Shown piece by piece: positions 1 to 37,589 of a DNA stretch of 37,589 bases. Position numbers and translations under genes: made by a program. Each line of letters starts with the position of its first letter. Positions within the stretch are counted from its first letter, which is position 1. The notes under the pieces are model-generated. The model was not told the DNA's origin, searched no databases, and saw nothing but the letters and a program-made list of their open reading frames with translations. The DNA lies in the IMG/VR virus record IMGVR_UViG_641522623_000002; one strand, written 5' to 3'. The stretch is from a virus (lineage: Duplodnaviria > Heunggongvirae > Uroviricota > Caudoviricetes).

Positions 1-258
1 ATGCAAACCGTTATTTTTGGTCGTCCGGGTTGCCCTTACTGTGTGCGTGCAAAAGATCTGGCTGAGAAATTGAGCAATGAACACGATGATTTTCAGTATC
101 ACTATGTAGATATTCGTGCGGAAGGGATCACTAAAGAAGATCTACAACAAAAGGCAGGTAAACCCGTAGAAACCGTGCCGCAGATTTTTGTCGATCAGCA
201 ACATATCGGCGGCTATACCGATTTTGCTGCATGGGTGAAAGAAAATCTGGACGCCTGA
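1..258 (+). CDS. grxA: Glutaredoxin 1
   Basis: 85-aa ORF with the CPYC thioredoxin-fold active site (GRPGCPYCVRAK); a complete gene starting at base 1; sits next to ybjM/ybjL as in E. coli. Confidence 0.9.
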   Translation: MQTVIFGRPGCPYCVRAKDLAEKLSNEHDDFQYHYVDIRAEGITKEDLQQKAGKPVETVPQIFVDQQHIGGYTDFAAWVKENLDA

Positions 259-267
259 TCGTCTGAC

Positions 268-300
268 AAGCCCTCGCGTTGAGGGCTTTACTGATTTTTT
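268..300 (+). terminator. Hairpin aagccctc-gcgtt-gagggctt followed by a T-run; probable grxA terminator overlapping the ybjM 3' end
   Basis: Inverted repeat 268-275/281-288, T6 at 295-300; the T-tract is not immediately adjacent. Confidence 0.4.
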
Positions 301-665
301 CTGTGCTGTGGTTTAAACAAACTACTGATAAATAAGAAACACAGTGCCCCCAGCGCACACCAGAACACCGCACTTAATAACCATGCCAGCTCTTGCCAGA
401 ATGAGCGCGTCGGTGAAAAAAACAGCCGCATAATGAGCATCGAACAGGGTGCCGCCAGCATTGCGCCAAACAGAGGTTTCAGGACTTCTCTACGCTGTGA
501 AAAGAAGCTGGCGACTGCTCCAGGAAGAATGAAAAATAGCAAGCCGATTTCAGGATGCCCGGCAGCCCGAAAAGCGCCTTTCATGTGCGTCGCCAGAAAA
601 AGGCACACCACAATGAAGAGGACAAAACAGCAGATTGCCCCCGCCCAACGTTGTTTATGTTTCAC
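288..665 (-). CDS. ybjM: Inner membrane protein YbjM
   Basis: 125-aa strongly hydrophobic ORF; size, position and sequence fit E. coli ybjM between grxA and ybjL. Confidence 0.8.
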   Translation of the reverse strand: MKHKQRWAGAICCFVLFIVVCLFLATHMKGAFRAAGHPEIGLLFFILPGAVASFFSQRREVLKPLFGAMLAAPCSMLIMRLFFSPTRSFWQELAWLLSAVFWCALGALCFLFISSLFKPQHRKNQ

Positions 666-934
666 TCGTTCCTCCTGACACTGCGTCTATCGAACACATT
701 TTTCGCCAGTGTGGCGTTCAGTAAGATAAAGCCGCTTCGCATTCCATGCTAATATAGGCCAACGCAATTCATATAGCCGTTGATACCTAATGTGATTACA
801 CTAGTAAAATATATTGTTACTTTACTATCGTTTAGGTGCGCTGAATGAATCTGCGCCCTGAATTCTGGTAAAAAACATTATCGTAAATTACCATTTCTTT
901 CAACAGCTTACTAGTAAACAAGAAGTTAGCCTCC

Positions 935-2620
935 GTGAATATAAACGTCGCCGAATTGTTAAATGGGAATTACATTCTGTTATTATTTGTGGTCCTCGCG
1001 CTTGGGCTATGTCTCGGAAAGTTACGACTTGGTTCGATCCAACTGGGTAATTCCATTGGCGTTTTAGTCGTATCGCTGTTATTAGGCCAACAACATTTCA
1101 GCATTAACACCGATGCGCTTAATCTTGGCTTTATGCTGTTTATTTTCTGTGTTGGGGTTGAAGCCGGACCGAACTTTTTTTCCATTTTTTTTCGCGATGG
1201 GAAAAATTACCTAATGTTAGCACTGGTGATGGTTGGCAGTGCGCTGGTGATCGCCTTAGGGTTAGGTAAGCTGTTTGGCTGGGATATTGGCCTGACGGCC
1301 GGTATGTTAGCAGGCTCTATGACGTCGACACCGGTTCTGGTCGGTGCTGGCGATACACTGCGTCATTCCGGCATGGAAAGCAGGCAGCTCTCACTGGCAC
1401 TGGATAATCTGAGCCTCGGGTATGCCTTAACCTATTTAATCGGTCTGGTGAGTTTGATTGTTGGTGCGCGTTACTTGCCGAAATTGCAGCATCAGGACTT
1501 ACAGACCAGCGCCCAGCAAATCGCCCGCGAACGTGGCCTGGACACTGATGCCAACCGTAAGGTTTATTTACCGGTGATCCGCGCCTATCGCGTCGGCCCG
1601 GAGCTGGTGGCCTGGACCGACGGCAAAAATCTGCGTGAACTGGGTATTTATCGACAAACCGGCTGCTACATTGAACGTATTCGACGTAACGGGATTCTGG
1701 CAAATCCAGACGGTGATGCCGTGCTACAAATGGGCGATGAAATAGCGTTGGTAGGCTATCCCGACGCCCATGCCCGACTCGATCCCAGCTTCCGTAACGG
1801 TAAAGAAGTTTTCGATCGTGACCTTCTCGACATGCGTATCGTCACTGAAGAAGTGGTCGTTAAAAACCATAACGCTGTAGGTAAACGTCTCGCACAACTG
1901 AAGTTGACCGATCACGGTTGCTTCCTTAACCGCGTCATTCGTAGCCAGATTGAGATGCCGATAGATGACAACGTCGTGCTTAACAAAGGTGACGTTTTAC
2001 AAGTCAGCGGTGATGCCCGTCGCGTAAAAACCATCGCCGATCGCATCGGCTTTATCTCGATTCACAGCCAGGTCACTGACCTGCTGGCATTTTGCGCCTT
2101 CTTTGTTATTGGGCTGATGATCGGGATGATCACCTTCCAGTTCAGCACATTCAGTTTCGGCATGGGGAACGCTGCCGGGTTGTTATTCGCCGGAATTATG
2201 CTGGGCTTTATGCGTGCTAACCACCCGACCTTCGGTTACATTCCGCAGGGTGCATTAAGCATGGTGAAAGAGTTCGGCTTGATGGTGTTTATGGCAGGCG
2301 TTGGTCTGAGCGCCGGTAGCGGTATTAATAACGGCCTGGGCGCGATTGGCGGTCAGATGTTGATTGCCGGATTGATTGTCAGTCTGGTGCCCGTGGTTAT
2401 CTGTTTCTTGTTCGGTGCTTATGTATTGCGAATGAACCGCGCGCTGTTGTTCGGCGCAATGATGGGCGCACGTACCTGCGCGCCGGCAATGGAGATCATC
2501 AGTGATACAGCTCGCAGTAACATCCCGGCGCTGGGCTATGCGGGCACCTATGCAATCGCCAACGTCCTGCTGACGCTGGCAGGGACAATCATCGTCATGG
2601 TATGGCCAGGATTAGGATAA
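935..2620 (+). CDS. ybjL: Putative AAE-family transporter YbjL (two membrane domains flanking TrkA-C/RCK-C-like soluble domains)
   Basis: 561-aa ORF with hydrophobic N- and C-terminal halves and a soluble middle; matches the recalled E. coli YbjL. Confidence 0.88.
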
Positions 2621-2732
2621 AACTGAAGTTGCCCTGAAAATGAAATTTTTTTGCACAACCGCAGAACTTTTCCGCAGGGCATCAGTCTTAATTAGTGCCA
2701 CTGCTTTTCTTTGATGTCCCCATTTTGTGGAG

Positions 2733-2775
2733 CCCATCAACCCCGCCATTTCGGTTCAAGGTTGATGGGTTTTTT
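2733..2775 (+). terminator. Rho-independent terminator-like hairpin downstream of ybjL
   Basis: cccatcaacc (2733-2742) pairs with ggttgatggg (2760-2769), followed by TTTTTT (2770-2775); the loop is rather long (17 nt). Confidence 0.5.
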
Positions 2776-2855
2776 GTTGCCTGAAATTTAAGCTGTTTAA
2801 AATCATGATGTTAGAAGCACTGTTTTTTAACGATGGCGACAAAATGGCGGCAGCG

Positions 2856-3074
2856 TCAAAGAGAGAGCGCCACCTGTCCTGATTTCATTGGATGCGGCTG
2901 AACCGGATTTGACTCTTTTGGCGTTGCAATCGAACGAACAAAAGTTTCATGGGTAACAAAAGTATGGCTGCAGTTAATGTTCTGGCACTGGTTGTAACGC
3001 TCTTTGGTCAATGAAGATACCTGAAAACTGCTGCGAGTATGGGCGGCACTTCCACACAGTGGGCAAATCATCAT
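2856..3074 (-). CDS. ogr: Late-gene transcriptional activator, Ogr/Delta/B zinc-finger family
   Basis: Translation MMICPLCGSAAHTRSS...YNQCQNINCSHTF carries the CxxC...CxxxxC zinc-finger signature of P2 Ogr / 186 B. Start chosen at the internal Met pair; the ORF track begins at 3107. Confidence 0.8.
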   Translation of the reverse strand: MMICPLCGSAAHTRSSFQVSSLTKERYNQCQNINCSHTFVTHETFVRSIATPKESNPVQPHPMKSGQVALSL

Positions 3075-4747: not shown

Positions 4748-7700
4748 GCGTCGTATCCCCCCTGATCGCTGTAGTTACTCCTGGCTTTTGCCTTCAGCCT
4801 GCGTTCACGTTCATCAAGCTGGCGGGCCACCTCCCGCGCAATATCCTGCGCACTTTGTCCTGGCTGCGTCTGAATGATGATCTGCGTCGGTGCCTCAATC
4901 CGTTGAACGGGCGGCACAGTGGCTGCACGACTCACCATCGCTTCGCCGCCTTTCGCGGGAAGTGCCAAAGGATGTAACGGTGGAAGCTCTGTAGGCGCGG
5001 CAGCAACGCCCATCATTCCGGCAACAACCGCAGCCAGTGCAGCGGTATTTCTCCGGCTGGTCACGTTTGCCGGGCCGTTGACAATTTCCGGCCCGTTTTC
5101 ACCGACGATGCCAAACTGCCCGCGCGGGATATAGCCGCCGCTGTCATACATCCCCGCAAAGCCATATCCCCATGACGGAAAACCACCCGATGGCATCATC
5201 ACTTTACCGTCTGCATTCACCGTCGCAGGTTGCTGACGCGTCACGCTTTCCGGCAGTTTCGCCTTTGCAGCCTCTTTACTGACAATGCCGAGCTTCTCCA
5301 GCAACCAGGAAACACCGGATTTCAGGGAGTCCAGCGGATGCATGACCATATTCAGCCCTTCCGCCAGTGCCTCCCCGAATCGTCGCCCCATTGCCGCTGC
5401 GCTCTGCAGTTCGGCAGAGGTCGACTTAACGGGCGTCAGCAGATCAGTAAACCAGCCCCACAGCGCCTGTACTTTGTCGCCAATCCACTGAAACACAGGC
5501 TTAAGTGGTTCGAATGCAGCACTGATGGGACCTGCCGCCGCTTTGAATCCTTCCACCACGCCACCGAGAAATGCGGTGATGGGTTGCCAGTATTTCCAGA
5601 CAACCAGCGCCACACCCGCCAGTGCAGTAACCACAAGACCTATCGGACTGAGCAGAGCACCTAACAGACCAGATATGGCATACAGGGCAACGCGCAGCAT
5701 CGCCAGCGGACCAGATGCAAGCACACGAAGCACCGCGCCTGCGGCAGCCAGTCCACCGCGCAGTACCGCCAGAGGATTCATAAACATCACAGCAACAGCA
5801 CGTAAAGCGGATAATCCAGACCGCAATAGTGCAACCGGCGCACCTGCTACAGTTTTCAGGACATTTCCCGTCAGTGATGCCGTACGGCGCAAAGACGACA
5901 ACGGCGCAGTAAGTAAACCCGCTGCGTTACCCGATGAAGCAAGCCCGCGTCGCAGCACTGCCAGTGGAGCGCCAGCCAGCCAGGACAACGCGCTGCTGGT
6001 TCGTGTTACTGCTGCCGTAACGGAAGGTAACGTTTTTATGCCCAGCACAGAGAATCCCAGACGGATGACTGCCAGCGGCCCCAGCACTGCAGCCAGCGCC
6101 ACAGCCAAGGTGCCGAGGCCTACGGTAACCGCAGCCACAATAGCGGCTACTTTCATCAGTGTGCCCGTCAGTTCCGGGTTAGCTTCGACCCAGCGACGCA
6201 ACGCTCCCGTAACGCTTTTCACCGTGTACAGAATATCCATCAGCGGCTGGCGCAGCGTTTCGCCCAGGCTGCTGAAGGTATTCTGCGCTCCGGTTTTAAC
6301 CAGCAACCACTGAGCAGAAAGTGAGTCCTTGTTGATGTCGGATTCTTTCTGCATGGAGCCGAGCGCATCATTGCCCGCTGTCAGTTTTAGCTGGCGCTGT
6401 AGTTCCGGCAGGTTGTTTGCCAGTTTCGCCGCGTCATCGCCAAACTCTTTACCAAACAACATGGTCATGGCAGACAGACGCTTGTCCTGCGGCAGTGCGT
6501 TCACCTTCTCCAGCACACGCTGGATAGTTCCCATCGCATCCTTCGTCATCTGCTTTTCAATCACTTCAGGATTGAGTTTCAGCAGATTCATCCCTTCAAA
6601 GAAACTCTTGCTTTGCATGGTGGCAATGGACAATTCACGCACCATCGCGTTTGCTGCACTGGCTGCAACCTCTGGCGCAGCGCCCAGTGTCAGAAAGGTG
6701 GAACCCAGCGCCGCCGCTTTACGATAATCCAGACGATCAGCCACACCGCCCAGGCGTTGCATGACATCAATGATGTCTGCCCCTTTCGACATGGCGTTAT
6801 CATCCAGATAGTTCAGCGCATCACCGAGCTGTTCAATATTGCGGGTAGGGATTTTGTAGAGCTGGGCGATTTTCCCCAGACTTTCTGACAGTTCATCCGC
6901 TGGCAGCTCAAAGGCTGTTGCCGCCTTTGCTGCCGTGCTGGCGAAGGCCAGCAGGTCACGTTTCTGGTCTTCCCAGCTGTCGTCAGGATTTGCGACGTTC
7001 ATGCGCGCACCACCTTCAACCAGTGCGGCAAAGTCCACAGCACCGTTTTCCATCGGCAACTGTTCGCTGGCAGCCTTGATGACATCCTGCATTTCGTAAA
7101 AACGCGCGGTGCGGTTGCCATTATCGTCACGCAGACCATTGACCTGCTTTGCCACACCTTTCATGGCATCTTCCATGCTGGTATAGCTTTTTACTGCCGC
7201 CATCACTGGTGCGCCCATTGCCAGCCCTGCAGCCGTGGTGGTGGCTCCGGCACCTGCAATACGATCACGCACCTCCAGCGAACGGGCATAACTGGCACGC
7301 GCCGCATTCATCCTGCGCTGAGCTTCCCCCAGTCGCTTCAGCCGCGCCTCTTGTTTCGAAAGTTCCTGGTTATAACGTGATGTTTCACGGGCTAAACGGG
7401 CAGTTGCTCCCGCATCATCTTTCGCAGAAATTCCCGCCCGGTACAGTTCTGCACGCACAAGCGCCGTTTGCTTCTGCAAATATTTTTGTTGTTCTTCCAG
7501 GCGTTGGACTGCCAGCGTTTGCCGACCTAAAGCCACAAGATGCCTTTGTGATGGTTGTTCCATCGCTTCCAGCTCAGAACTAAGCAAATTTGCCTTCTGT
7601 CTGGCATAGTTCAGCCTGTCGCCTAACTTTTTGTTATCGGCCTGCAGCTTGCGAAATTTTTCCAGGCTGTTACCCGCCTGATTGAGTTGCTTTAATGCGT

Positions 7701-10144: not shown

Positions 10145-10717
10145 TCAGGGCGATTCATTGTTCTCATTCGCCGGAAATTTTCTATAAATGGTAGAAACGC
10201 CCACATCAAAAATCAGTGCAATACGCTGTCTTGATTCTCCGGCCTCGAGTAAACGTCCAATCTGTGCCCACTGTTTGGTAGTCAACTTAGGACGGCGTCC
10301 ACCTACTCTGCCTTTAGCACGAGCTGCAGCCAGCCCTGCCCTGGTACGTTCAACTATCAGTTCGCGTTCCATTTCAGCCAGGGCACCCATGACATGAAAA
10401 AAGAAACGGCCCATTGGGGTACTGGTATCAATACTGTCAGTCAGACTTCTGAAATTCACGCCGCGCTGGCGCAACTCTTCTATCAGAGTAACAAGATGCC
10501 GCATACTGCGCCCCAACCTGTCCAGCTTCCAGACAACCAGTGTGTCACCTGCCGATAGTGTCCTGAGCAGCTTTTTCAGCCCCGGTCTGTCGGACTTGGT
10601 GCCACTGATTTTATCCTCAAAAATCCGCTCACATCCCGCGCAGTTCAGTGCATTACGTTGCAAATCGGTGTTCTGGTCATTTGTTGACACGCGTACATAG
10701 CCAATAAGCATGATCAT
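10145..10717 (-). CDS. Serine-recombinase DNA invertase (Gin/Cin/Pin/Hin family)
   Basis: 190 aa; N-terminal resolvase catalytic domain (GYVRVSTNDQ with the active-site Ser) and C-terminal HTH; sits immediately beside a crossover site. Confidence 0.9.
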   Translation of the reverse strand: MIMLIGYVRVSTNDQNTDLQRNALNCAGCERIFEDKISGTKSDRPGLKKLLRTLSAGDTLVVWKLDRLGRSMRHLVTLIEELRQRGVNFRSLTDSIDTSTPMGRFFFHVMGALAEMERELIVERTRAGLAAARAKGRVGGRRPKLTTKQWAQIGRLLEAGESRQRIALIFDVGVSTIYRKFPANENNESP

Positions 10718-15532: not shown

Positions 15533-16113
15533 ACCGGGCCTCCGGTTGTATCGCCGCCTTTCAGGACGCCAGTATGCTGATGCACATCAACCACGATCCC
15601 GTTAGAACTCATCGCACCGCCGCCCTGGGTAACGCCGCCATTGATCACTACTTCACTATTAATACGCGTGCGGTCAGCCTCCAGCACAAACTCACTGGTT
15701 TTCAGGGTGATATTGTCGGCAGCCTCAATAACCATGGATTTGATGCCCCTGACATACCAGCGCCCGGTGGCGGGTTCGTATTCAAACCAGCCACCGTCAG
15801 GATGTTCTGTCACGCAGGCGTCCGCCGACGTCGACGGTGGTGCGAACTGATTCGAATAGACAGCGGGCAGCGCAAAGGCGGTCTCCAGATTGCCGCCCAG
15901 ACTCAGCAGCACCACCTGCTCACCTTCCGATGGTCGCCACCATGTCCGGGCATTCCCGGCACGCAGGGTCAGCCAGCTGATCCAGTTGGTTTCTAAGTCG
16001 CCTGTTTTCACCCGACAAAGCCAGTTTTCCCTGTCCACTTCGGTGACTACACCAGTGCGGATCAGGTTGGTGATAAGGCGCATGATTTCGGTCAGTTGTG
16101 TATTCATTTCCAA
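15529..16113 (-). CDS. Baseplate spike/hub protein gpV
   Basis: 194 aa; the N-terminus resembles P2 gpV from the second Met (MNTQLTEIMRL...), so the true start may be 16107. Confidence 0.82.
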   Translation of the reverse strand: MEMNTQLTEIMRLITNLIRTGVVTEVDRENWLCRVKTGDLETNWISWLTLRAGNARTWWRPSEGEQVVLLSLGGNLETAFALPAVYSNQFAPPSTSADACVTEHPDGGWFEYEPATGRWYVRGIKSMVIEAADNITLKTSEFVLEADRTRINSEVVINGGVTQGGGAMSSNGIVVDVHQHTGVLKGGDTTGGPV

Positions 16114-16153
16114 ATTATCAAACAGAACAAAGACTAATTCATCTATTTAGAAT

Positions 16154-16171
16154 TGTAAGAGATTTGGCACA
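16154..16171 (-). promoter_or_regulatory. Candidate Ogr/B activator site (TGT-N12-ACA) of the V-operon late promoter
   Basis: tgtaagagatttggcaca 40-58 bp upstream of the V start codon. Confidence 0.35.
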
Positions 16172-16204
16172 ATGATAATTTAAAGAAAGAATGACAACTT
16201 TAAA

Positions 16205-16233
16205 TAAAAACGCCCTATTAAAGGGCGTTTTTA
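16205..16233 (-). terminator. Rho-independent terminator downstream of the cargo NTPase gene (bidirectional shape)
   Basis: aaaaa-cgccct-atta-agggcg-ttttt; stem 16211-16216 / 16222-16227 flanked by A and T runs. Confidence 0.7.
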
Positions 16234-17745
16234 TTATTGCCTAAGTTTAGGCTTGATAATTCCTAGTGCATCCCACAAACCACAGTGTATTTCAAAATTC
16301 AACGTTGGGTCCATTTCTAAATCTTCATCATTAAATGACCACAAATAAACATCTCCGCCATCTGTTTTAGATCTCCTGAGTACATTCCCGATAGCACCGA
16401 CTTTAAATAAACAACTCAGTATTTTATTAAGCGTTAATGTACCATCTCCTAACTTCAATTCTTCAAATTTTTCCTTGATTAAATGTGGAGTGAAACCTCT
16501 TTTTTTTAATGAACGTAAAAGAGAAAAACTGTCATCTATTTCTGAATCACTTAAATGTCCCGCAAGCTCAGATCTAATTTCACGTAAAAGATAAGATGAG
16601 TATTTTTTAGAAATCTTTGTAAACATGGAACTTTCAAATCTTTCAGTATTTTCTCCATATTCATCTTGAATATAAGTTAGCATCCTAACGGCATCTCTTG
16701 GGCGACCTAGAGTTCTATGTAAAATATAAATAGAGCTATGCTCACCTGCAACTCTCTCAGTGAAAATTTTCCCGAACAAATTAGAACCATTTAAATCATT
16801 ATAATAATCAGTGGAGTTTTTGATCTTAAAAGCAATCATATCAAAAATCTCAGAATCACTTGCTCGTTCTCCAGCAGAACACCAATCAAGTGTAACAGAG
16901 TTATCTTCAATGATTTTATTAATATTCGGCGATGAAAAAGTATTTATTATATCATGACGAATAACTGCACCAATTTTAGCATCTATTTTATTTTGCATTA
17001 GAGTTTTATTAATTGACACAACAGCATTTAAAAAACTTATCATTGCATTTTTATATTCAACTGTTGCATCAAACTTATCATCTAACTCATCATAAAATAC
17101 ATATATTTTTTTATTACTCTCTTTTAGCATGTCAACAATAAAACACTGCAAAGATTCCATACATTCCAAATAATTCTTTTTTGTTTCTTTTGTTTTCTCG
17201 ACCTCACCATCTTTTGCTTTGGCTTCACCACGTAATACTGGGAATCTAAATCCGATACCAACCTCACCCGACGCTTGGTACTCCCTAGTTATTTCAACTG
17301 TTTGCTCAGGCCTTAACTCGCCCGCGACATGGCCAAAAGAACGTAAAAAACTTTCCAAATGAACTATTTTATCCTCACTAAATCCTTTTTTATTACTTAC
17401 AATATTCTTAGCAAGATTGACCAATATCATCCACTTGAAAATTGGTACATATTTTGTGGAAGACACATCCTGCCCCTGAAAGTGAGTAAGTTCATGAAAA
17501 ACAAAATCTTTTAATGATTCCACAACTGCAATATAATTATTTTTTCGCTTGGCGTTACAGTAGACATTAACAAGCAATGTCTTACCCGTCCCCTTCCTGC
17601 CAATTACGAGCATTTTATTTTTTCTATCAAGTTTACTTAATGAATTATTTATATCATAAAAATATTTCGAGTAATTATCGAGAAATAATACCTCATTCTC
17701 TCCATAAACCTCACCAAATTCAAAATCACCAATTTTGGGGCGCAT
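16234..17745 (-). CDS. AT-rich cargo gene: P-loop NTPase of unassigned family (candidate anti-phage defence protein)
   Basis: 503 aa; Walker A GRKGTGKT (aa 49-56, encoded about 17578-17601); Walker-B-like IYVFYDELDD; GRPRD sensor/arginine-finger-like motif; codon usage and base composition are visibly AT-rich compared with the flanking S and V genes; own terminator. Confidence 0.75.
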   Translation of the reverse strand: MRPKIGDFEFGEVYGENEVLFLDNYSKYFYDINNSLSKLDRKNKMLVIGRKGTGKTLLVNVYCNAKRKNNYIAVVESLKDFVFHELTHFQGQDVSSTKYVPIFKWMILVNLAKNIVSNKKGFSEDKIVHLESFLRSFGHVAGELRPEQTVEITREYQASGEVGIGFRFPVLRGEAKAKDGEVEKTKETKKNYLECMESLQCFIVDMLKESNKKIYVFYDELDDKFDATVEYKNAMISFLNAVVSINKTLMQNKIDAKIGAVIRHDIINTFSSPNINKIIEDNSVTLDWCSAGERASDSEIFDMIAFKIKNSTDYYNDLNGSNLFGKIFTERVAGEHSSIYILHRTLGRPRDAVRMLTYIQDEYGENTERFESSMFTKISKKYSSYLLREIRSELAGHLSDSEIDDSFSLLRSLKKRGFTPHLIKEKFEELKLGDGTLTLNKILSCLFKVGAIGNVLRRSKTDGGDVYLWSFNDEDLEMDPTLNFEIHCGLWDALGIIKPKLRQ

Positions 17746-25191: not shown

Positions 25192-26216
25192 TGGGAAAGA
25201 GTAAGAAGAACCGCACTGCGGCGACGAAACAGATCCAGCTTAAAAGTCAAACTACAGCCGAAGCATTCAGCTTCGGCGATCCCGTTCCTGTTCTGGACCG
25301 CCGAGAACTGCTGGATTATGTGGAATGCGTACAGATGGACCGCTGGTATGAGCCGCCCGTCAGCTTTGACGGACTGGCGCGCACCTTCCGCGCTGCCGTG
25401 CATCATAGTTCCCCGATTGCAGTAAAGTGCAACATTCTGACCAGCACCTACATCCCTCACCCGCTGCTCAGCCAGCAGGCTTTTTCGCGTTTTGTGCAGG
25501 ACTATCTGGTATTTGGTAACGCCTACCTGGAGAAACGCACGAACCGCTTCGGTGAAGTTATCGCCCTTGAACCTGCCCTGGCAAAATACACCCGACGCGG
25601 GTTAGACCTGGATACCTACTGGTTTGTGCAATACGGTATGACCACGCAGCCATATCAGTTCACGAAAGGCAGCATCTTTCATCTGATGGAACCGGACATC
25701 AACCAGGAGATCTACGGCCTGCCCGGTTATCTTTCTGCCATTCCGTCAGCCCTGCTCAACGAGTCCGCCACGCTGTTCCGCCGAAAGTATTACATTAACG
25801 GCAGTCATGCTGGCTTCATCATGTACATGACCGATGCTGCGCAGAACCAGGAGGATGTGAACAACCTCCGCAACGCAATGAAAAGCGCCAAAGGTCCAGG
25901 CAACTTCCGCAACCTGTTTATGTACTCACCTAACGGCAAAAAGGATGGTCTTCAGATTATCCCGTTGTCAGAAGTCGCGGCAAAGGATGAATTTCTGAAC
26001 ATCAAGAACGTGAGCCGGGATGACATGATGGCGGCACACCGCGTGCCTCCGCAAATGATGGGTATCATGCCGAATAATGTTGGCGGGTTTGGGGATGTGG
26101 AGAAGGCATCCACGGTTTTTGTACGTAATGAATTAAAGCCTCTTCAACAACGAATTAGAGAGGTGAACAATTGGCTACATGATGACGTAATAAAATTCCA
26201 AGATTACTCCTTGTAA
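25188..26216 (+). CDS. Portal protein gpQ (3' end apparently replaced by AT-rich sequence)
   Basis: 342 aa; the last ~30 codons are markedly AT-rich, unlike the rest of the gene. Confidence 0.85.
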   Translation: MMGKSKKNRTAATKQIQLKSQTTAEAFSFGDPVPVLDRRELLDYVECVQMDRWYEPPVSFDGLARTFRAAVHHSSPIAVKCNILTSTYIPHPLLSQQAFSRFVQDYLVFGNAYLEKRTNRFGEVIALEPALAKYTRRGLDLDTYWFVQYGMTTQPYQFTKGSIFHLMEPDINQEIYGLPGYLSAIPSALLNESATLFRRKYYINGSHAGFIMYMTDAAQNQEDVNNLRNAMKSAKGPGNFRNLFMYSPNGKKDGLQIIPLSEVAAKDEFLNIKNVSRDDMMAAHRVPPQMMGIMPNNVGGFGDVEKASTVFVRNELKPLQQRIREVNNWLHDDVIKFQDYSL

Positions 26217-26220
26217 TTAA

Positions 26221-26256
26221 AGCCTCTTCTTTAGAAACCCATCCAAAGAAGAGGCT
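26221..26256. terminator. Bidirectional terminator between convergent Q and the cargo operon
   Basis: agcctcttcttt (26221-26232) pairs with aaagaagaggct (26245-26256); flanked by A/T runs. Confidence 0.7.
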
Positions 26257-26268
26257 TATTGCCACCCG

Positions 26269-26586
26269 TTATATACCACATACAAAATTGATCTTAACGC
26301 TTTTATCAACAACAAGCAGAGAAGTGCCAACAGACTTAATAAATCCCAGTTCATACTCTTCTGAATGCGTCATTGTAATAATATGAACAGGAACAAATAA
26401 ATCAAGCTCCCGCAGCTTTCGCTTCAATAATAAACCATCGACACAATCACCTATCACAAGCATATCAATATCATTTGCATCGCAAAAACTCTTTAATGCT
26501 GACCCAAATACATATACATCCACCATATATAAACTATGATGGATAATAACATCACAGATCGATTCAATCGTATGTTTAAAATTCAC
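26269..26586 (-). CDS. Minimal nucleotidyltransferase (Pol-beta superfamily, MNT-like), third gene of the cargo operon
   Basis: 105 aa; GS-x9-DxD motif (VYVFGSALKSFCDANDIDMLVIG); 1-nt overlap with the upstream gene; AT-rich. Confidence 0.7.
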   Translation of the reverse strand: MNFKHTIESICDVIIHHSLYMVDVYVFGSALKSFCDANDIDMLVIGDCVDGLLLKRKLRELDLFVPVHIITMTHSEEYELGFIKSVGTSLLVVDKSVKINFVCGI

Positions 26587-27245
26587 TACCGTGAAATTCT
26601 TCGTAATAAATCACCCAACTTGTAAAGCTCCACCCCGATACTTTGAGCAGCCTCTTTTGCCTGAGTCGTCAATCGTCCATTAGGATTGGAGGAAAAAACA
26701 ACATCACAATTGCCATGCAACCCTATCGCATCTCTTACAGAACCCGCTGTCATATCATAATCATTCGCAGCGATAATAACTAAGTCCGCCAAGCCACGTC
26801 TTTTAAGTCTATATTTTTTGTTGGTTTCTCGCTCTACAGAGCTTACATGTGAATGTTGATTGAACACTCTATTTATAAACAAATGCTCTTTATCAAGATG
26901 CTCAAGCGGATTATTAGCTCTTAAGGAAGATGCAATATGCCCAAATGAACCCACTCCTATTTTCTTTTGTTCTAGTAATCTCATTGCATCACCAGAGATA
27001 AATTCAACACCTCCCTTGACTGATAGAAAATCAATTTTTTTATTGTCTAGGTATTCATTTATCTCAGGACATGTTATCCGGCCAGTATTGATTGCCCCGA
27101 TCAAATAGGTGTCACCCTGTGTAGTATTAATCACTAAAGTACCATCATCTATCACCTCTATATTTTCGACACATTTATTTTCTTGTAATTTTCCTGCCAT
27201 CCATGAAATATAGCCTTCACTCGCATTTATGCTCATTGGATTCAT
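26586..27245 (-). CDS. Hypothetical protein, middle gene of the cargo operon (possible HEPN-like Rx4H motif)
   Basis: 219 aa; translationally coupled on both sides; contains RVFNQH; no confident family assignment from sequence alone. Confidence 0.6.
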   Translation of the reverse strand: MNPMSINASEGYISWMAGKLQENKCVENIEVIDDGTLVINTTQGDTYLIGAINTGRITCPEINEYLDNKKIDFLSVKGGVEFISGDAMRLLEQKKIGVGSFGHIASSLRANNPLEHLDKEHLFINRVFNQHSHVSSVERETNKKYRLKRRGLADLVIIAANDYDMTAGSVRDAIGLHGNCDVVFSSNPNGRLTTQAKEAAQSIGVELYKLGDLLRRISR

Positions 27246-27937
27246 CCTATAAATAGTTCAGATGCAGCTTCTGGAAACCTACTACCATTAGCATCGGTTA
27301 AGCCCAAATGTTTTGATTCAAAGTCATCTATATGAACACAAAGCTTTGAAAAAACATTCTTCTCATCTTCACTCATGAGGTGATAGTTTTGTTCAACCAG
27401 TCGCTGTACTTTTCTATTGTTGGGTAAGATATGAGATTGTACTTTTCTTAACCATACTTCTGCATTTGGATTTTCAGGGTCAACGCTGTTCTCTTGGGTT
27501 GGTCCATATGTTACAAAAATGGTATTGTTTTCTCTGAAGTATTTTTCTAACTCCTGTCTAACAGATTCTCGATTGTCATATGTTTTAACACCAAAGGTTG
27601 CATTTATTTTATCAATATGGCCGTTTTTCCAAGAACGGATAATTTCATCAGTAAAATGTTCCTCTGCCTTATCAATTGTCGTATGGCAATTAGCACATAG
27701 AAGAATAATGTTGTCAAAATGACCTCTCTGCTCATCAGTTAGATCAGCATTGGTTCTAGGTCCATTATCAATGGCACTAAAAATGTGAGCAAGTTCTCCA
27801 ATTGTTATATTTTTGTCGCCAGCATCAACAAACAAAGGTTGCAAGCATTGTGGATTTTGGCAAAAGCCACCTGAGCTGGCAAAAAGCCGTCTAACTGTAT
27901 TAGCGTTTGGAGAAGCTTTTCCCCTACTGCAAGCCAT
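27242..27937 (-). CDS. HNH-motif nuclease-like protein, first gene of the cargo operon
   Basis: 231 aa; CQNPQC...GELAHI...NIILLCANCHTTID (Cys pair, His, Asn, C-x2-CH) typical of HNH/His-Me finger nucleases; AAGG ribosome-binding site upstream. Confidence 0.7.
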   Translation of the reverse strand: MACSRGKASPNANTVRRLFASSGGFCQNPQCLQPLFVDAGDKNITIGELAHIFSAIDNGPRTNADLTDEQRGHFDNIILLCANCHTTIDKAEEHFTDEIIRSWKNGHIDKINATFGVKTYDNRESVRQELEKYFRENNTIFVTYGPTQENSVDPENPNAEVWLRKVQSHILPNNRKVQRLVEQNYHLMSEDEKNVFSKLCVHIDDFESKHLGLTDANGSRFPEAASELFIG

Positions 27938-34707: not shown

Positions 34708-35200
34708 CGAGGCCAGTCACGGTATCAACTGCACTCGCCATCGCAGGATTAGCCTGTAAACGGGCCTGCAATGAAACAGCAGCCAGCGCCATCAGTCGTG
34801 TAACAGAGTTAATGCTGCTGATCGCATCACGACGGCCTGCACTGGTTTTTACATCGCCAGAAACCGCACCTGCCGCGACACGCCCTATCTCTGCAGTTGC
34901 ACTCATGACGTAATGCGGCAGTTTCTCTTTTGCTACCTCATTAATCGGTACACATGGCAGGCAGTGAATCTGTGCCAGAAAGCCATCTACCAGCGTTGAA
35001 TCTTCAGTCAGATCGGTAAGCAACCAGATTTCTGGTGCGGTTAATAAATGAGGTTGAGCTGGGTTCAGCTTGTTCCGCAGAATCTGCACATTCATGCCTG
35101 CACGTTCTGCCAGTTGCACTAGGTTGTGGCGCAATGCGAATGCACGACAGGCTTCATCAAAATGTGGATGTTTGGAAACTTGGTAATCAAACATGGTCAA
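34685..35200 (-). CDS. Phage 186 CII-like lysogeny-establishment protein (P2 gene-B-position protein)
   Basis: 171 aa immediately after the Apl/Cox-like gene; size and position fit 186 cII; assignment is by synteny and recollection. Confidence 0.5.
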
Positions 35201-35573: not shown

Positions 35574-36143
35574 ATGAATTTGGAGAAAGGCGGACGAGGC
35601 GCTATAGAGCGCATGGTAGAAGCTTATGGATTCAAAACTCGACAGGCGTTGTGCGATCATTTAGGAATCTCTAAAAGTACACTCGCCACACGCTACATGC
35701 GTGACTCATTCCCAGCAGAATGGGTAATCCAGTGCGCCCTTGAAACGGGCACCTCGCTTAATTGGCTCACAACCGGACATGGTTCAAAGCAAACTTCAGG
35801 TAATACAAATACTATGGAAGTTGCTAAATATGTATTATCTGATGGTGCCTTGCGTGAAGACGGTTTTTATATTTTTGATAAGGGATTTCTACCCTCTACG
35901 TTTAAAAAACCTTTTGTCATCACAGATAAAAATTCTGAATTTATTTGTGATAAAGAATTTGATGATATACGTGACGGTAAATGGGTAATAAGTATTGATG
36001 GCGAAATAACAATCCGCGACATTACTCGTTTACCCGGTGGAAGAATCTTCGTTGAAGGTGGAAACAGAGCCTTCGAGTGCAAGATAGAAGATGTTGAAAT
36101 AATTGGGAAAATTATAAGTTTAACAATTAAGTACGTTAGGTAA
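35574..36143 (+). CDS. cI: Immunity repressor CI (phage-186-type, two-domain)
   Basis: 189 aa from the ATG preceded by GGAG (the ORF track begins at a GTG at 35568); N-terminal HTH (ALCDHLGISKSTLATRYMR); size as 186 CI. Confidence 0.7.
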   Translation: MNLEKGGRGAIERMVEAYGFKTRQALCDHLGISKSTLATRYMRDSFPAEWVIQCALETGTSLNWLTTGHGSKQTSGNTNTMEVAKYVLSDGALREDGFYIFDKGFLPSTFKKPFVITDKNSEFICDKEFDDIRDGKWVISIDGEITIRDITRLPGGRIFVEGGNRAFECKIEDVEIIGKIISLTIKYVR

Positions 36144-36158
36144 TACCGGGAGGAAACT

Positions 36159-36350
36159 ATGCTTGGTAAGGTATTTTTTGTGGTTTTATCATGCTCTTTG
36201 TTATTAAACCCACTAACTACCTATGCTAAAAATTATCCTTGTTCTGGGAAAAAGGGAGGTGTCTCTCACTGTACCTCCGATGGAAAGTTCGTTTGCAATG
36301 ATGGAACTATTAGTAAATCAAAAAAAATCTGTACTAAAAACTCGCGATAA
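36159..36350 (+). CDS. Small secreted Cys-rich protein (possible moron)
   Basis: 63 aa; signal peptide ending ...TTYA; mature ~40 aa with 6 Cys; strong GGGAGGA ribosome-binding site; AT-rich; between cI and int. Confidence 0.5.
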
Positions 36351-36536
36351 ATTTTGCTTTTATATCTGCGCCTAATATAACAATGAGCCGCAGGCTAACC
36401 GCAAAAGTCACATACTCACATAGCAAAAAATAGCCAACTTCATTATGGCTTCAGTGAGATGTATGGTCGCAGGATTTCATACATTGACACTGGTTATACA
36501 TACAGTAAAAATGCTCTCTATTGGAGGGCATTTTTT

Positions 36537-37589
36537 ATGGCAGTACGAAAACTCACCACAGGAAAATGGCTTTGCGAATGTTACCCCGCCGGACGTAGTG
36601 GACGCCGTGTGCGTAAACAATTCGCCACCAAAGGCGAAGCTCTGGCTTTTGAGCGTCACACGATGGAAGAAACCGAAGCAAAGCCCTGGCTGGGCGAATC
36701 AGTGGATCGTCGGACATTGAAAGACGTGGTTGAGCTATGGTTCAAACTACATGGTAAATCTCTAACCGCTGGGCAGCATGTCTATGACAAATTGCTGTTG
36801 ATGGTTGATGCTCTGGGCAATCCTCTTGCAACCGATCTCACCTCTAAAATGTTTGCCCACTATCGAGATAAACGCCTGACAGGCGAGATCTACTTCAGCG
36901 AGAAATGGAAGAAAGGAGCAAGCCCGGTCACCATTAACCTGGAGCAAAGCTATCTAAGTAGTGTTTTTAGCGAACTATCCCGTCTGGGCGAATGGTCGTA
37001 TCCGAACCCACTGGAGAACATGCGAAAATTCACCATCGCAGAAAAAGAGATGGCATGGCTTACCCATGAGCAGATTGTTGAATTGCTGGCTGATTGCAAA
37101 CGTCAGGACCCAATTCTGGCACTGGTAGTTAAGATATGCTTAAGCACAGGCGCACGCTGGCGTGAAGCCGTAAATCTTACCCGCTCACAGGTGACCAAAT
37201 ACCGAATTACCTTTGTCAGAACGAAGGGGAAGAAAAACAGAAGCATCCCTATCAGTAAAGAGCTTTACGAAGAGATCATGGCGCTTGATGGGTTCAATTT
37301 CTTCACAGACTGCTATTTTCAATTTTTATCCGTGATGGAAAAAACGTCTATCGTGCTCCCTCGCGGTCAACTGACACACGTTCTGCGCCATACGTTTGCG
37401 GCGCACTTCATGATGTCGGGTGGAAACATTCTGGCCTTACAAAAAATTCTTGGACACCACGATATAAAAATGACTATGCGTTACGCACATCTGGCACCGG
37501 ATCATCTGGAAACGGCGCTCCGTTTCAATCCTCTGGCAACGCTGCCAAATGGCGACAAAGTGGCGGCAGCGGTTGGCATTACCCCGTAA
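36537..37589 (+). CDS. int: Tyrosine integrase (P2/186 type)
   Basis: 350 aa from MAVRKL (GGAGGG ribosome-binding site); LCLSTGARWREA and HVLRHTFA...MRYAHL catalytic-box motifs; stop codon is the last base of the window. Confidence 0.88.
   Translation: MAVRKLTTGKWLCECYPAGRSGRRVRKQFATKGEALAFERHTMEETEAKPWLGESVDRRTLKDVVELWFKLHGKSLTAGQHVYDKLLLMVDALGNPLATDLTSKMFAHYRDKRLTGEIYFSEKWKKGASPVTINLEQSYLSSVFSELSRLGEWSYPNPLENMRKFTIAEKEMAWLTHEQIVELLADCKRQDPILALVVKICLSTGARWREAVNLTRSQVTKYRITFVRTKGKKNRSIPISKELYEEIMALDGFNFFTDCYFQFLSVMEKTSIVLPRGQLTHVLRHTFAAHFMMSGGNILALQKILGHHDIKMTMRYAHLAPDHLETALRFNPLATLPNGDKVAAAVGITP

What the first reader, a model, noticed from the sequence alone, without database searches (positions are those of the whole stretch)
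36144..36536. Small secreted Cys-rich ORF inserted between cI and int
A 63-aa ORF with a strong ribosome-binding site, a cleavable signal peptide and 6 Cys in the ~40-aa mature part, in AT-rich DNA, occupies the repressor-integrase interval. It would be expressed in the lysogen from the cI transcript. It is a candidate lysogenic-conversion moron.
Basis: inference. Interest (0 to 1): 0.4.

Follow-up and report, generated by a model that had tools for sequence, protein, structure and literature searches.

The report
Prophage YdcA-family periplasmic mini-protein gene
The small gene after the prophage repressor is real and encodes a secreted 40-residue, disulfide-bonded, strongly basic protein of the widespread YdcA family, whose function is unknown; it is probably made in lysogens together with the repressor, so it is an ordinary but tractable candidate lysogen-benefit gene.

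Summary
The ORF (36159-36350, +, 63 aa) is real. It has a GGGAGG ribosome-binding site 5 nt upstream, lies 15 nt after the cI stop, and its signal peptide probably cleaves after TYA23.

It is not an orphan. It scores above the curated cutoff of NCBIfam NF007463, and RefSeq calls it 'YdcA family protein'. It is 57% identical to E. coli K-12 YdcA. The mature domain is under strong purifying selection (dN/dS about 0.02-0.04).

The module occurs in 631 of 5426 complete E. coli genomes, including BL21-derived C41(DE3). In phage 186, cI and int abut. Related prophages put other cargo in this slot, including defence genes. YdcA homologues follow cI in Yersinia and Hafnia prophages and, unannotated, in Haemophilus phage HP2.

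The only solved relative is Legionella Dot/Icm protein Dis2, which looks like two YdcA-like lobes; this link is moderate by sequence and weak by fold. Some relatives are fused to secreted nucleases.

Function is unknown. My best guess is a periplasmic polyanion-binding protein expressed from the cI transcript and acting at the envelope. In passing: a likely CII-activated int promoter with a terminator hairpin lies just upstream of int.

The parts
35574..36143 (+). [quoted passage not shown]
   Evidence: Pfam Phage_CI_repr 2.8e-33 and Phage_CI_C 5.8e-28. RefSeq annotates it as 'phage repressor protein CI', 570 nt.
36148..36153 (+). Shine-Dalgarno GGGAGG of the YdcA-like ORF, 5 nt before its ATG
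   Evidence: Read directly from the sequence.
36159..36227 (+). Signal peptide, residues 1-23 ([23 protein letters not shown]); predicted signal peptidase I cleavage after Ala23
   Evidence: Ala23 is invariant while the rest varies across 29 homologues. dN here is 0.65-1.4 between genera, against 0.08-0.25 in the mature part. No signal-peptide predictor was available, so the cleavage site is inferred.
36228..36350 (+). Mature YdcA domain, 40 aa ([40 protein letters not shown]), plus the stop codon; 4 conserved Cys, net charge +7, pI 9.6, 4.26 kDa
   Evidence: NF007463 at 116 bits, above the cutoff of 93. Homologues carry precomputed Pfam PF27300 YdcA. Invariant columns are listed. Charge and mass. 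dN/dS 0.02-0.04.
36351..36458 (+). Non-coding spacer downstream of the ORF; no recognisable element
   Evidence: No plus-strand promoter or terminator was found here. It is 92.6-94.1% identical between variants, about as divergent as the flanking genes.
36459..36484 (+). Inverted repeat ATGTATG-N12-CATACAT, a second CII-type binding site
   Evidence: The pattern occurs twice in the window, against 0.09 expected. The other copy (35168-35194) matches the annotated CII site of phage 186 pE. The int-proximal copy is found in 186-like loci with cargo between cI and int, and is absent from 186 and RE-2010.
36484..36512 (+). Sigma-70-like promoter TTGACA-17-AAAAAT upstream of int
   Evidence: Consensus scan, 10 of 12 matches. 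Conserved across prophages that carry different cargo. Activity is not shown.
36507..36536 (+). Hairpin (core GCUCUC/GAGGGC, extended by A/U pairs) plus a U6 run ending at the int ATG; the 3' arm contains the int SD
   Evidence: RNA fold -17.2 kcal/mol, z -6.5. Equivalent hairpins with different stem sequences occur in L014, 813R9 and Hafnia. A terminator or RBS-masking role is inferred.
36537..37589 (+). Tyrosine integrase, 350 aa
   Evidence: Pfam Int_N 3.2e-32 and Phage_integrase 7.2e-22. 97% nucleotide identity to the int of phages 813R9, KP12 and 4LV2017, starting at window position 36477.
35168..35194 (+). pE-type CII binding site ATGTTTG-N13-CAAACAT at the start of cII (context for the lysogenic operon)
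   Evidence: annotation of NC_001317 23435..23462.

Best explanation
The ORF encodes a YdcA-family pre-protein. It is most likely transcribed with cI from the lysogenic promoters as the last gene of the maintenance transcript. It would then be exported by Sec, cleaved after Ala23 and oxidised to a two-disulfide, 4.3-kDa, strongly basic periplasmic mini-protein. The gene, its family membership, the purifying selection and the operon layout are shown. Export, the disulfides and expression in the lysogen are inferred. The proposed activity is also inferred: the domain binds a polyanionic partner near the outer membrane, either nucleic acid or the phosphate-rich inner face of the envelope. It thereby changes an envelope property that benefits the lysogen. 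The two leading outcomes are exclusion of incoming foreign DNA or phage, and tolerance of acid or organic-acid stress. The confidence given applies to this envelope-acting, polyanion-binding reading, not to either outcome.
For: Gene and family:
- NF007463 at 116 bits, above the cutoff of 93.
- PHROG 6000.
- PF27300 is precomputed on homologues.
- RefSeq name 'YdcA family protein'.
- 57% identity to K-12 YdcA.

Selection:
- Against E. coli variants the mature part shows 9 synonymous changes to 1 non-synonymous.
- Between genera the synonymous sites are saturated, with only 3-7 non-synonymous differences.

Operon layout:
- The gap after cI is 15 nt, with a strong SD.
- No intervening promoter or terminator was found.
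- A hairpin plus U6 lies just before int.
- In HP2 the homologue's ATG overlaps the cI stop, in an operon annotated as driven by pL.

Envelope and polyanion reading:
- The signal peptide has an invariant Ala at -1.
- The core charge is conserved and positive, median +3 over 140 domains; the mature peptide is +7.
- Lys32 and Lys55 are invariant.
- The domain is fused N-terminally to two unrelated secreted nuclease families, SNase and Endonuclease_NS.
- The only solved relative, Dis2, sits near the outer membrane in the Dot/Icm cap and is disulfide-pinned.

Lysogen benefit:
- The slot holds known or candidate defence genes in relatives: PDC-S20 KAP NTPase and PD-Lambda-1.
- Deleting chromosomal ydcA in E. 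coli W severely reduced growth in 300 mM 3-hydroxypropionate, and ydcA is reported to be acid-induced through YdcI (PMC7642389).
Against: - No expression, localisation or binding data exist for this protein or any family member.
- YdcA has no PADLOC hit and no conserved partner gene.
- Only 3 of 148 representatives carry a nuclease fusion, which could reflect anchoring rather than DNA binding.
- Dis2 lobes are acidic, not basic.
- The 3-hydroxypropionate phenotype comes from one knockout of the chromosomal paralogue.
- Most family members (72 of 80 species-level loci) do not lie next to a 186-type cI or int, so the function need not be phage-specific.
Confidence: 0.5

Rival explanations
1. Superinfection exclusion or DNA-entry block. 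The periplasmic basic peptide binds incoming phage DNA or ejection proteins, or a component of the entry route, and stops competing phages. It would be an envelope-level counterpart of the cytoplasmic defence genes found in the same slot.
For: - The slot carries PD-Lambda-1 and the PDC-S20 KAP NTPase in relatives.
- The integrase-to-primase region of P2-like phages is a reported minor defence hotspot (PMC13586616).
- Co-expression with cI is the classical arrangement for exclusion genes (established knowledge: lambda rexAB).
- Nuclease fusions suggest affinity for nucleic acid.
- The gene recurs in temperate phages of Moraxella, Acinetobacter, Haemophilus, Neisseria and Comamonas.
Against: - No PADLOC model matches it.
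- A core chromosomal paralogue exists in E. coli outside any prophage.
- Very high sequence conservation is unusual for proteins in an arms race.
- No experiment has tested this.
Confidence: 0.2
2. Envelope or acid-stress fitness factor. The prophage copy is a constitutively expressed paralogue of the acid-induced chromosomal ydcA. It would improve tolerance of organic or low-pH stress, for example during gut passage.
For: - The ydcA deletion in E. coli W was severely impaired in 300 mM 3-hydroxypropionate, whereas deletion of the neighbouring rydC was not.
- ydcA is reported to be YdcI-controlled and induced at pH 5 (PMC7642389).
- The prophage copy is 57% identical, with all motif residues kept.
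- Strong purifying selection is typical of a housekeeping-like interaction.
Against: - This rests on a single phenotype in one study; complementation was not checked in the passages read, and no mechanism was given.
- It does not explain the nuclease fusions or the tight linkage to cI in several phage lineages.
Confidence: 0.2
3. A module that docks onto outer-membrane machines. Like Dis2 in the Dot/Icm cap, the domain would attach to a secretion or conjugation channel. The prophage version would interfere with conjugation, type IV or type VI secretion, or pili.
For: - Dis2 consists of two YdcA-like lobes and is a stoichiometric component of the T4SS cap.
- One relative is fused to a VasL (T6SS) domain.
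- UniRef labels some members 'Conjugal transfer protein'; the basis for that name is unknown.
Against: - The window protein is a single lobe and basic, whereas Dis2 lobes are acidic.
- No T4SS genes were found near the members examined.
- The homology is remote.
Confidence: 0.07
4. A non-functional passenger or mis-called ORF in AT-rich spacer DNA.
For: - It is short and lies in AT-rich DNA.
- IS5 disrupts it in strain 730V1 without loss of the prophage.
- Many RefSeq records still call it 'hypothetical protein'.
Against: - HMM E-values are around 1e-34.
- dN/dS is 0.02-0.04.
- 436 representative clusters were found across Proteobacteria.
- The four Cys and the motif are conserved.
Confidence: 0.03

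Closest known systems
E. coli K-12 YdcA (57 aa; NCBIfam NF007462 / PRK10040.1-1; Pfam PF27300)
   Same: Same family and architecture: a signal peptide followed by the motif PCSG-KGG(V/I)SHC...GKFVCNDG(T/S)IS-SKK-C with four Cys. 57% identity. Described in the literature as a predicted periplasmic protein of unknown function (PMC11340327).
   Different: The chromosomal copy lies in the aldA-gapC-cybB-ydcA-trg neighbourhood and belongs to a different NCBIfam equivalog. It is reported to be YdcI- and acid-regulated. The window copy belongs to NF007463 and sits in a prophage lysogeny operon.
Legionella pneumophila Dis2 (Lpg0823), outer-membrane-cap component of the Dot/Icm T4SS (PDB 7MUC, 7MUD)
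   Same: Each Dis2 lobe aligns with the YdcA core: GG(V/I), the central (V/L)CN(D/N)G..S, and the flanking Cys. It is the top hit of both the sequence-profile and the Foldseek searches of the PDB. A close Dis2 relative carries PF27300. It is disulfide-pinned and lies close to the outer membrane.
Lambda rexA/rexB (genes co-transcribed with cI in the lysogen)
   Same: An accessory gene placed directly downstream of the repressor gene, and so expressed during lysogeny (established knowledge for lambda; inferred here from the layout).
   Different: No sequence relationship. Rex proteins act at the cytoplasm and inner membrane as an abortive-infection pair. This is a single 40-aa periplasmic peptide of unknown activity.
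Classical morons and P2-like cargo hotspots (P2 old, tin, Z/fun; the defence hotspots of Rousset 2022 and PMC13586616)
   Same: Presence or absence varies between otherwise similar phages, GC content is low, and defence genes sit in the same slot.
   Different: It has no promoter of its own. It is far more conserved than typical hotspot cargo. It stays next to cI, while the variable cargo is inserted downstream of it.
Small periplasmic or outer-membrane exclusion proteins (T4 Sp, T5 Llp, phi80/N15 Cor)
   Same: Small exported phage proteins that act at the envelope (established knowledge). This is a functional analogy only.
   Different: No sequence similarity was found. Llp and Cor are lipoproteins, whereas this protein has no conserved lipobox.

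Membership tests
YdcA family (Pfam PF27300; NCBIfam PRK10040 group; PHROG 6000) | Score above the curated HMM cutoff | tested here: met
   NF007463 scores 116.1 bits against a cutoff of 93. PHROG 6000, E 4.6e-34. The PF27300 model is not in the local Pfam copy, but it is precomputed on the cluster representative P0001, which is 97% identical.
YdcA family (Pfam PF27300; NCBIfam PRK10040 group; PHROG 6000) | About 55-65 aa, with an N-terminal Sec signal peptide followed by a single domain of about 35 aa | tested here: met
   63 aa, with the domain at residues 27-58. Ala is invariant at -1. No dedicated signal-peptide predictor was run.
YdcA family (Pfam PF27300; NCBIfam PRK10040 group; PHROG 6000) | Four conserved Cys and the motif PCSGxKGG(V/I)xxC...FxCxDGxxSxSK(K/R)xC | tested here: met
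   All invariant columns are present in the window protein.
Moron (autonomous lysogenic-conversion cassette in the sense of Hendrix and colleagues) | Present in some and absent from other closely related phages, at a fixed position | tested here: met
   Absent from 186 and RE-2010, where cI and int abut. Replaced by other genes in 813R9 and 4LV2017. Present in 631 of 5426 E. coli genomes.
Moron (autonomous lysogenic-conversion cassette in the sense of Hendrix and colleagues) | Base composition deviates from the surrounding phage genes | tested here: inconclusive
   The ORF is 34.9% GC against 50.5% for the window, but the adjacent C-terminal half of cI is equally AT-rich at 33.2%.
Moron (autonomous lysogenic-conversion cassette in the sense of Hendrix and colleagues) | Its own promoter and terminator | tested here: not met
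   No promoter-like site lies between cI and the ORF, and the gap is only 15 nt. A terminator-like hairpin lies 157 nt downstream, but it belongs to the conserved int leader.
Moron (autonomous lysogenic-conversion cassette in the sense of Hendrix and colleagues) | Expressed in the lysogen and changes the host phenotype | not testable with these tools
   No transcriptome, proteome or phenotype data were found for WP_001321204.1.
Dis2-type T4BSS cap component | Two tandem lobes pinned by five disulfides | tested here: not met
   The window protein has one lobe and four mature Cys. Dis2 is described in PMC8486379.
Dis2-type T4BSS cap component | Encoded in a genome with a Dot/Icm system and co-purifying with it | tested here: not met
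   Every gene identified in the window is a P2/186-type phage gene or a host ybj gene, and none is a T4SS gene; only selected ORFs were scanned against Pfam. Co-purification is not testable here.
Bacterial lipoprotein | A conserved lipobox with Cys at +1 at the end of the signal peptide | tested here: not met
   VLSC12 resembles a lipobox, but Cys12 is too early. It is absent from most homologues, which instead keep Ala at -1 before the mature domain.
Known anti-phage defence systems (PADLOC-DB 2.0) | A match to a defence-protein model | tested here: not met
   No hit at E 0.01 or better, whereas the neighbouring cargo of related prophages hits PDC-S20 and PD-Lambda-1.

The most novel reading that the evidence does not exclude
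The YdcA/Dis2 mini-domain is a periplasmic polyanion-binding (DNA-binding) module. On this reading, the stand-alone copy tied to cI in P2/186-like and other temperate phages is a new kind of constitutively expressed periplasmic barrier to incoming DNA from phage, conjugation or transformation. That would explain three things: its fusion to secreted nucleases, its presence in a T4SS cap, and its fixed place in the maintenance transcript.
Probability: 0.15. Interest if true: 0.7.

Novelty: new member of a known kind. Interest (0 to 1): 0.4.

Why it matters
YdcA is a small protein of unknown function found in E. coli K-12 and across many Proteobacteria. This prophage paralogue is present in about 12% of complete E. 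coli genomes, including the BL21 lineage. It sits in one of the best-understood genetic switches, that of phage 186, so its expression and phenotype are easy to test.

If it proves to act at the envelope, it would assign a function to a large orphan family. It would also give a first functional handle on Dis2, an unexplained part of the Legionella Dot/Icm machine.

The side observation matters separately. A second CII-type site, a promoter and a terminator hairpin lie in front of int wherever cargo separates cI from int. This suggests how these phages keep int regulated while using the cI-int junction as a cargo slot.

Tried and rejected
- **Lipoprotein reading of VLSC12.** Rejected: Cys12 is not conserved and comes too early.
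- **Conserved partner gene.** The genes downstream of YdcA in HP2, Moraxella and Hafnia are unrelated. Clustering the neighbours of 80 loci gave only lineage-specific neighbours.
- **Known defence family.** No PADLOC hit.
- **Local Pfam-A.** Only sub-threshold noise (GULLO2-like_3rd). A resemblance to DUF3761, recalled from memory, got no support in these scans and was dropped.
- **RNAalifold on the int-leader hairpin.** It failed because loop lengths differ and the alignment shifts. Single-sequence folds were used instead.
- **Literature.** Nothing for WP_001321204. Nothing on YdcA function beyond PMC7642389 and PMC11340327. The P2 hotspot paper does not mention YdcA.
- **Megablast against phage isolates.** No sequenced enterobacterial phage isolate carries this cI-ydcA module; only int matches. 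By tblastn, the only phage-isolate homologues are in Moraxella, Acinetobacter, Haemophilus and Pseudomonas phages.

Full report
**Setting**

The window holds host genes ybjM and ybjL at its left end. The rest is a P2/186-like prophage whose right end carries apl, cI and int. The finding covers 36144-36536, which is exactly the interval between the cI stop (36141-36143) and the int ATG (36537).

**Check of the observation**

A 63-aa ATG ORF lies at 36159-36350 on the + strand. GGGAGG at 36148-36153 sits 5 nt upstream of its start. The N-terminus ([23 protein letters not shown]) has the parts of a Sec signal peptide. The Ala at -1 is invariant in 29 homologues, while the rest of the leader varies freely.

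The protein has five Cys, at positions 12, 28, 38, 46 and 58. Cys12 is not conserved.

The ORF is 34.9% GC against 50.5% for the window. The AT-rich tract starts inside cI, whose C-terminal half is 33.2% GC. The composition therefore does not single out the ORF as a separate insertion.

**The gene is real and belongs to a known family**

- It scores 116.1 bits on NCBIfam NF007463 (PRK10040.1-2), against a cutoff of 93.
- It scores E 4.6e-34 on PHROG 6000, a family of unknown function.
- Its homologues carry precomputed Pfam PF27300, named YdcA.
- RefSeq annotates the identical protein, WP_001321204.1, as 'YdcA family protein' or 'hypothetical protein'.
- E. coli K-12-type YdcA, recovered from a chromosomal locus, is 57% identical and belongs to the sister model NF007462.

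Selection on the mature domain is strong. Against E. coli variants it shows 9 synonymous changes to 1 non-synonymous (dN/dS 0.02-0.04). Between genera the synonymous sites are saturated, with only 3-7 non-synonymous differences in about 88 sites. The signal peptide diverges freely.

**Position and distribution**

The 333-bp module 36144-36476 occurs in 631 of 5426 complete E. coli genomes. These include ATCC 8739, E. coli B and C41(DE3). Nearly all copies lie between cI and int.

In phage 186 itself, cI and int overlap by one base, with nothing between them. The same is true of Salmonella phage RE-2010. Phages with a 97% identical int carry other cargo in the slot:

- 813R9 carries a 558-aa protein that matches PD-Lambda-1.
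- Klebsiella phage 4LV2017 carries a 350-aa protein of unknown function.

In other prophages the YdcA-like gene stays directly after cI, and extra cargo is inserted downstream of it:

- a KAP NTPase that matches PADLOC PDC-S20;
- a 347-aa protein in Hafnia.

In Yersinia prophages the order is cI, YdcA, int. Haemophilus phage HP2 (and S2) has an unannotated 60-aa homologue. Its ATG overlaps the cI stop, in the operon annotated as driven by pL. An IS5 element disrupts the gene in one E. coli strain.

These cI proteins are only 25-38% identical to one another. The adjacent YdcA mature domains are 67-89% identical. YdcA therefore looks like an old, constrained companion of the immunity gene rather than recent cargo.

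Outside this context the family is broad. A profile search found 436 representative clusters at E 1e-3 or better among 1.84 billion proteins. Of 80 species-level loci across Gamma-, Beta- and Alphaproteobacteria, eight have a 186-type cI or int nearby. Members also occur:

- downstream of other repressor-like genes in Comamonas and in an Iodobacter P2-like element;
- in a Neisseria locus whose flanking ORFs I read as phage-like, without a family search;
- in tail-gene regions of Moraxella and Acinetobacter phages;
- on small Acinetobacter plasmids.

**Expression logic**

The gap after cI is 15 nt, and the scan found no promoter or terminator there. Downstream, a leader of about 75 nt before int is conserved across prophages with different cargo. 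It contains three elements:

1. An inverted repeat, ATGTATG-N12-CATACAT, at 36459-36484. The pattern occurs only twice in the window, against 0.09 expected. The other copy, at the cII start, equals the annotated CII site of 186 pE.
2. A TTGACA-17-AAAAAT promoter-like site at 36484-36512.
3. A hairpin followed by U6 that ends at the int ATG. Its 3' arm holds the int SD. It folds at -17.2 kcal/mol with z -6.5, and equivalent hairpins with different stem sequences occur in three other lineages.

The int-proximal CII-type site is present in the 186-like loci where cargo separates cI from int. It is absent from 186 and RE-2010.

My reading is inferred. Transcripts from pL or pE run through cI and ydcA and are then stopped or masked just before int. 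A CII-activated promoter, whose start would fall inside the hairpin, drives int during establishment of lysogeny. That would make the YdcA-like gene the last gene of the maintenance transcript. No expression data were found.

**What the protein may do**

The mature peptide is 4.26 kDa with pI 9.6 and net charge +7. Over 140 family domains the Cys-to-Cys core has a median charge of +3. Lys32 and Lys55 are invariant. AlphaFold gives a moderately confident small beta-hairpin domain, with pLDDT 82-89 over residues 31-60.

The only solved relative is Legionella Dis2 (Lpg0823). The evidence for the link:

- It is the top hit of a YdcA profile against PDB sequences, with both lobes aligned. E is 3.2e-5 with the signal peptide and 0.13 without it.
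- It gives the top two Foldseek hits, at E 0.38.
- A close Dis2 relative carries PF27300.
- Pairwise BLASTP aligns both lobes, at 3e-5 and 2e-4.
- A YdcA-only profile beats 4998-5000 of 5000 composition-matched shuffles.

Dis2 is described as lying near the outer membrane, with two similar lobes pinned by five disulfides, and no known function (PMC8486379).

Three of 148 representatives fuse the domain, after a signal peptide, to secreted nucleases of two unrelated families. One fuses it to a VasL domain.

The only phenotype in the family comes from chromosomal ydcA. Its deletion in E. coli W severely reduced growth in 300 mM 3-hydroxypropionate, and ydcA is reported to be acid-induced through YdcI (PMC7642389).

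Together these point to an exported module that binds polyanions close to the outer membrane. The data cannot decide whether the benefit to the lysogen is exclusion of foreign DNA or phage, stress tolerance, or interference with an outer-membrane machine.

**Verdict**

This is an already annotated member of the YdcA family, placed in a cargo slot of 186-like prophages.

Three points appear to be undescribed. The papers read do not mention the first two, and the literature on the third was searched only briefly.

- The recurrent linkage of YdcA to cI, including an unannotated copy in HP2.
- The relation to Dis2, and the nuclease fusions.
- The CII-site, promoter and hairpin leader in front of int.

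Noticed in passing
window 36459-36536 (also L001, L007, L009-L017, L020-21, L025-26, L028-29, L042): A conserved int leader contains a second CII-type inverted repeat, a sigma-70-like promoter, and a hairpin plus U6 that masks the int SD and ends at the int ATG. The extra CII-type site is present where cargo separates cI from int, and absent from phage 186 and RE-2010 where they abut. This suggests a lambda-pI-like, CII-dependent int promoter.
   Followed up: partly
[not shown]
   Followed up: yes
L001 4656-6461 (E. coli CFSAN061772): Directly after this prophage's int come ogr/Delta-like, gpD and tail genes of another P2-like element, and the record has two matching places. This looks like tandem or adjacent P2-like prophages at one site.
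   Followed up: no
window 26101-27937: An AT-rich cargo island lies between the replication and packaging genes. It includes a 231-aa protein whose N-terminal HNH nuclease domain matches PADLOC PDC-M68A and CBASS-type effector nucleases, next to a 219-aa protein with no family hit.
   Followed up: partly
window 16051-17745: An AT-rich island holds a 503-aa ORF (16234-17745, - strand) among the structural genes, with no Pfam or PADLOC hit. It may be cargo in the tail-region hotspot.
   Followed up: partly
window 10145-10717: A serine recombinase/invertase (Resolvase plus HTH_7) lies next to oppositely oriented short ORFs in the tail-fibre region. This may be a Gin/Cin-like tail-fibre inversion switch.
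   Followed up: no
window 1-2900: The left end is host DNA, with ybjM at 288-665 and ybjL at 935-2620. Other strains have rcdA and ybjJ beyond int, so the prophage sits between rcdA and ybjL.
   Followed up: partly
P0056, P0057, P0060, P0062, P0100; L063 3986-4348: Betaproteobacterial family members of 100-140 aa add a C-terminal Cys motif, C-x-C...C(T/A)GPRGGxYC. It weakly matches the Pfam PBCV basic adaptor domain (E 1e-4 to 6e-3).
   Followed up: no
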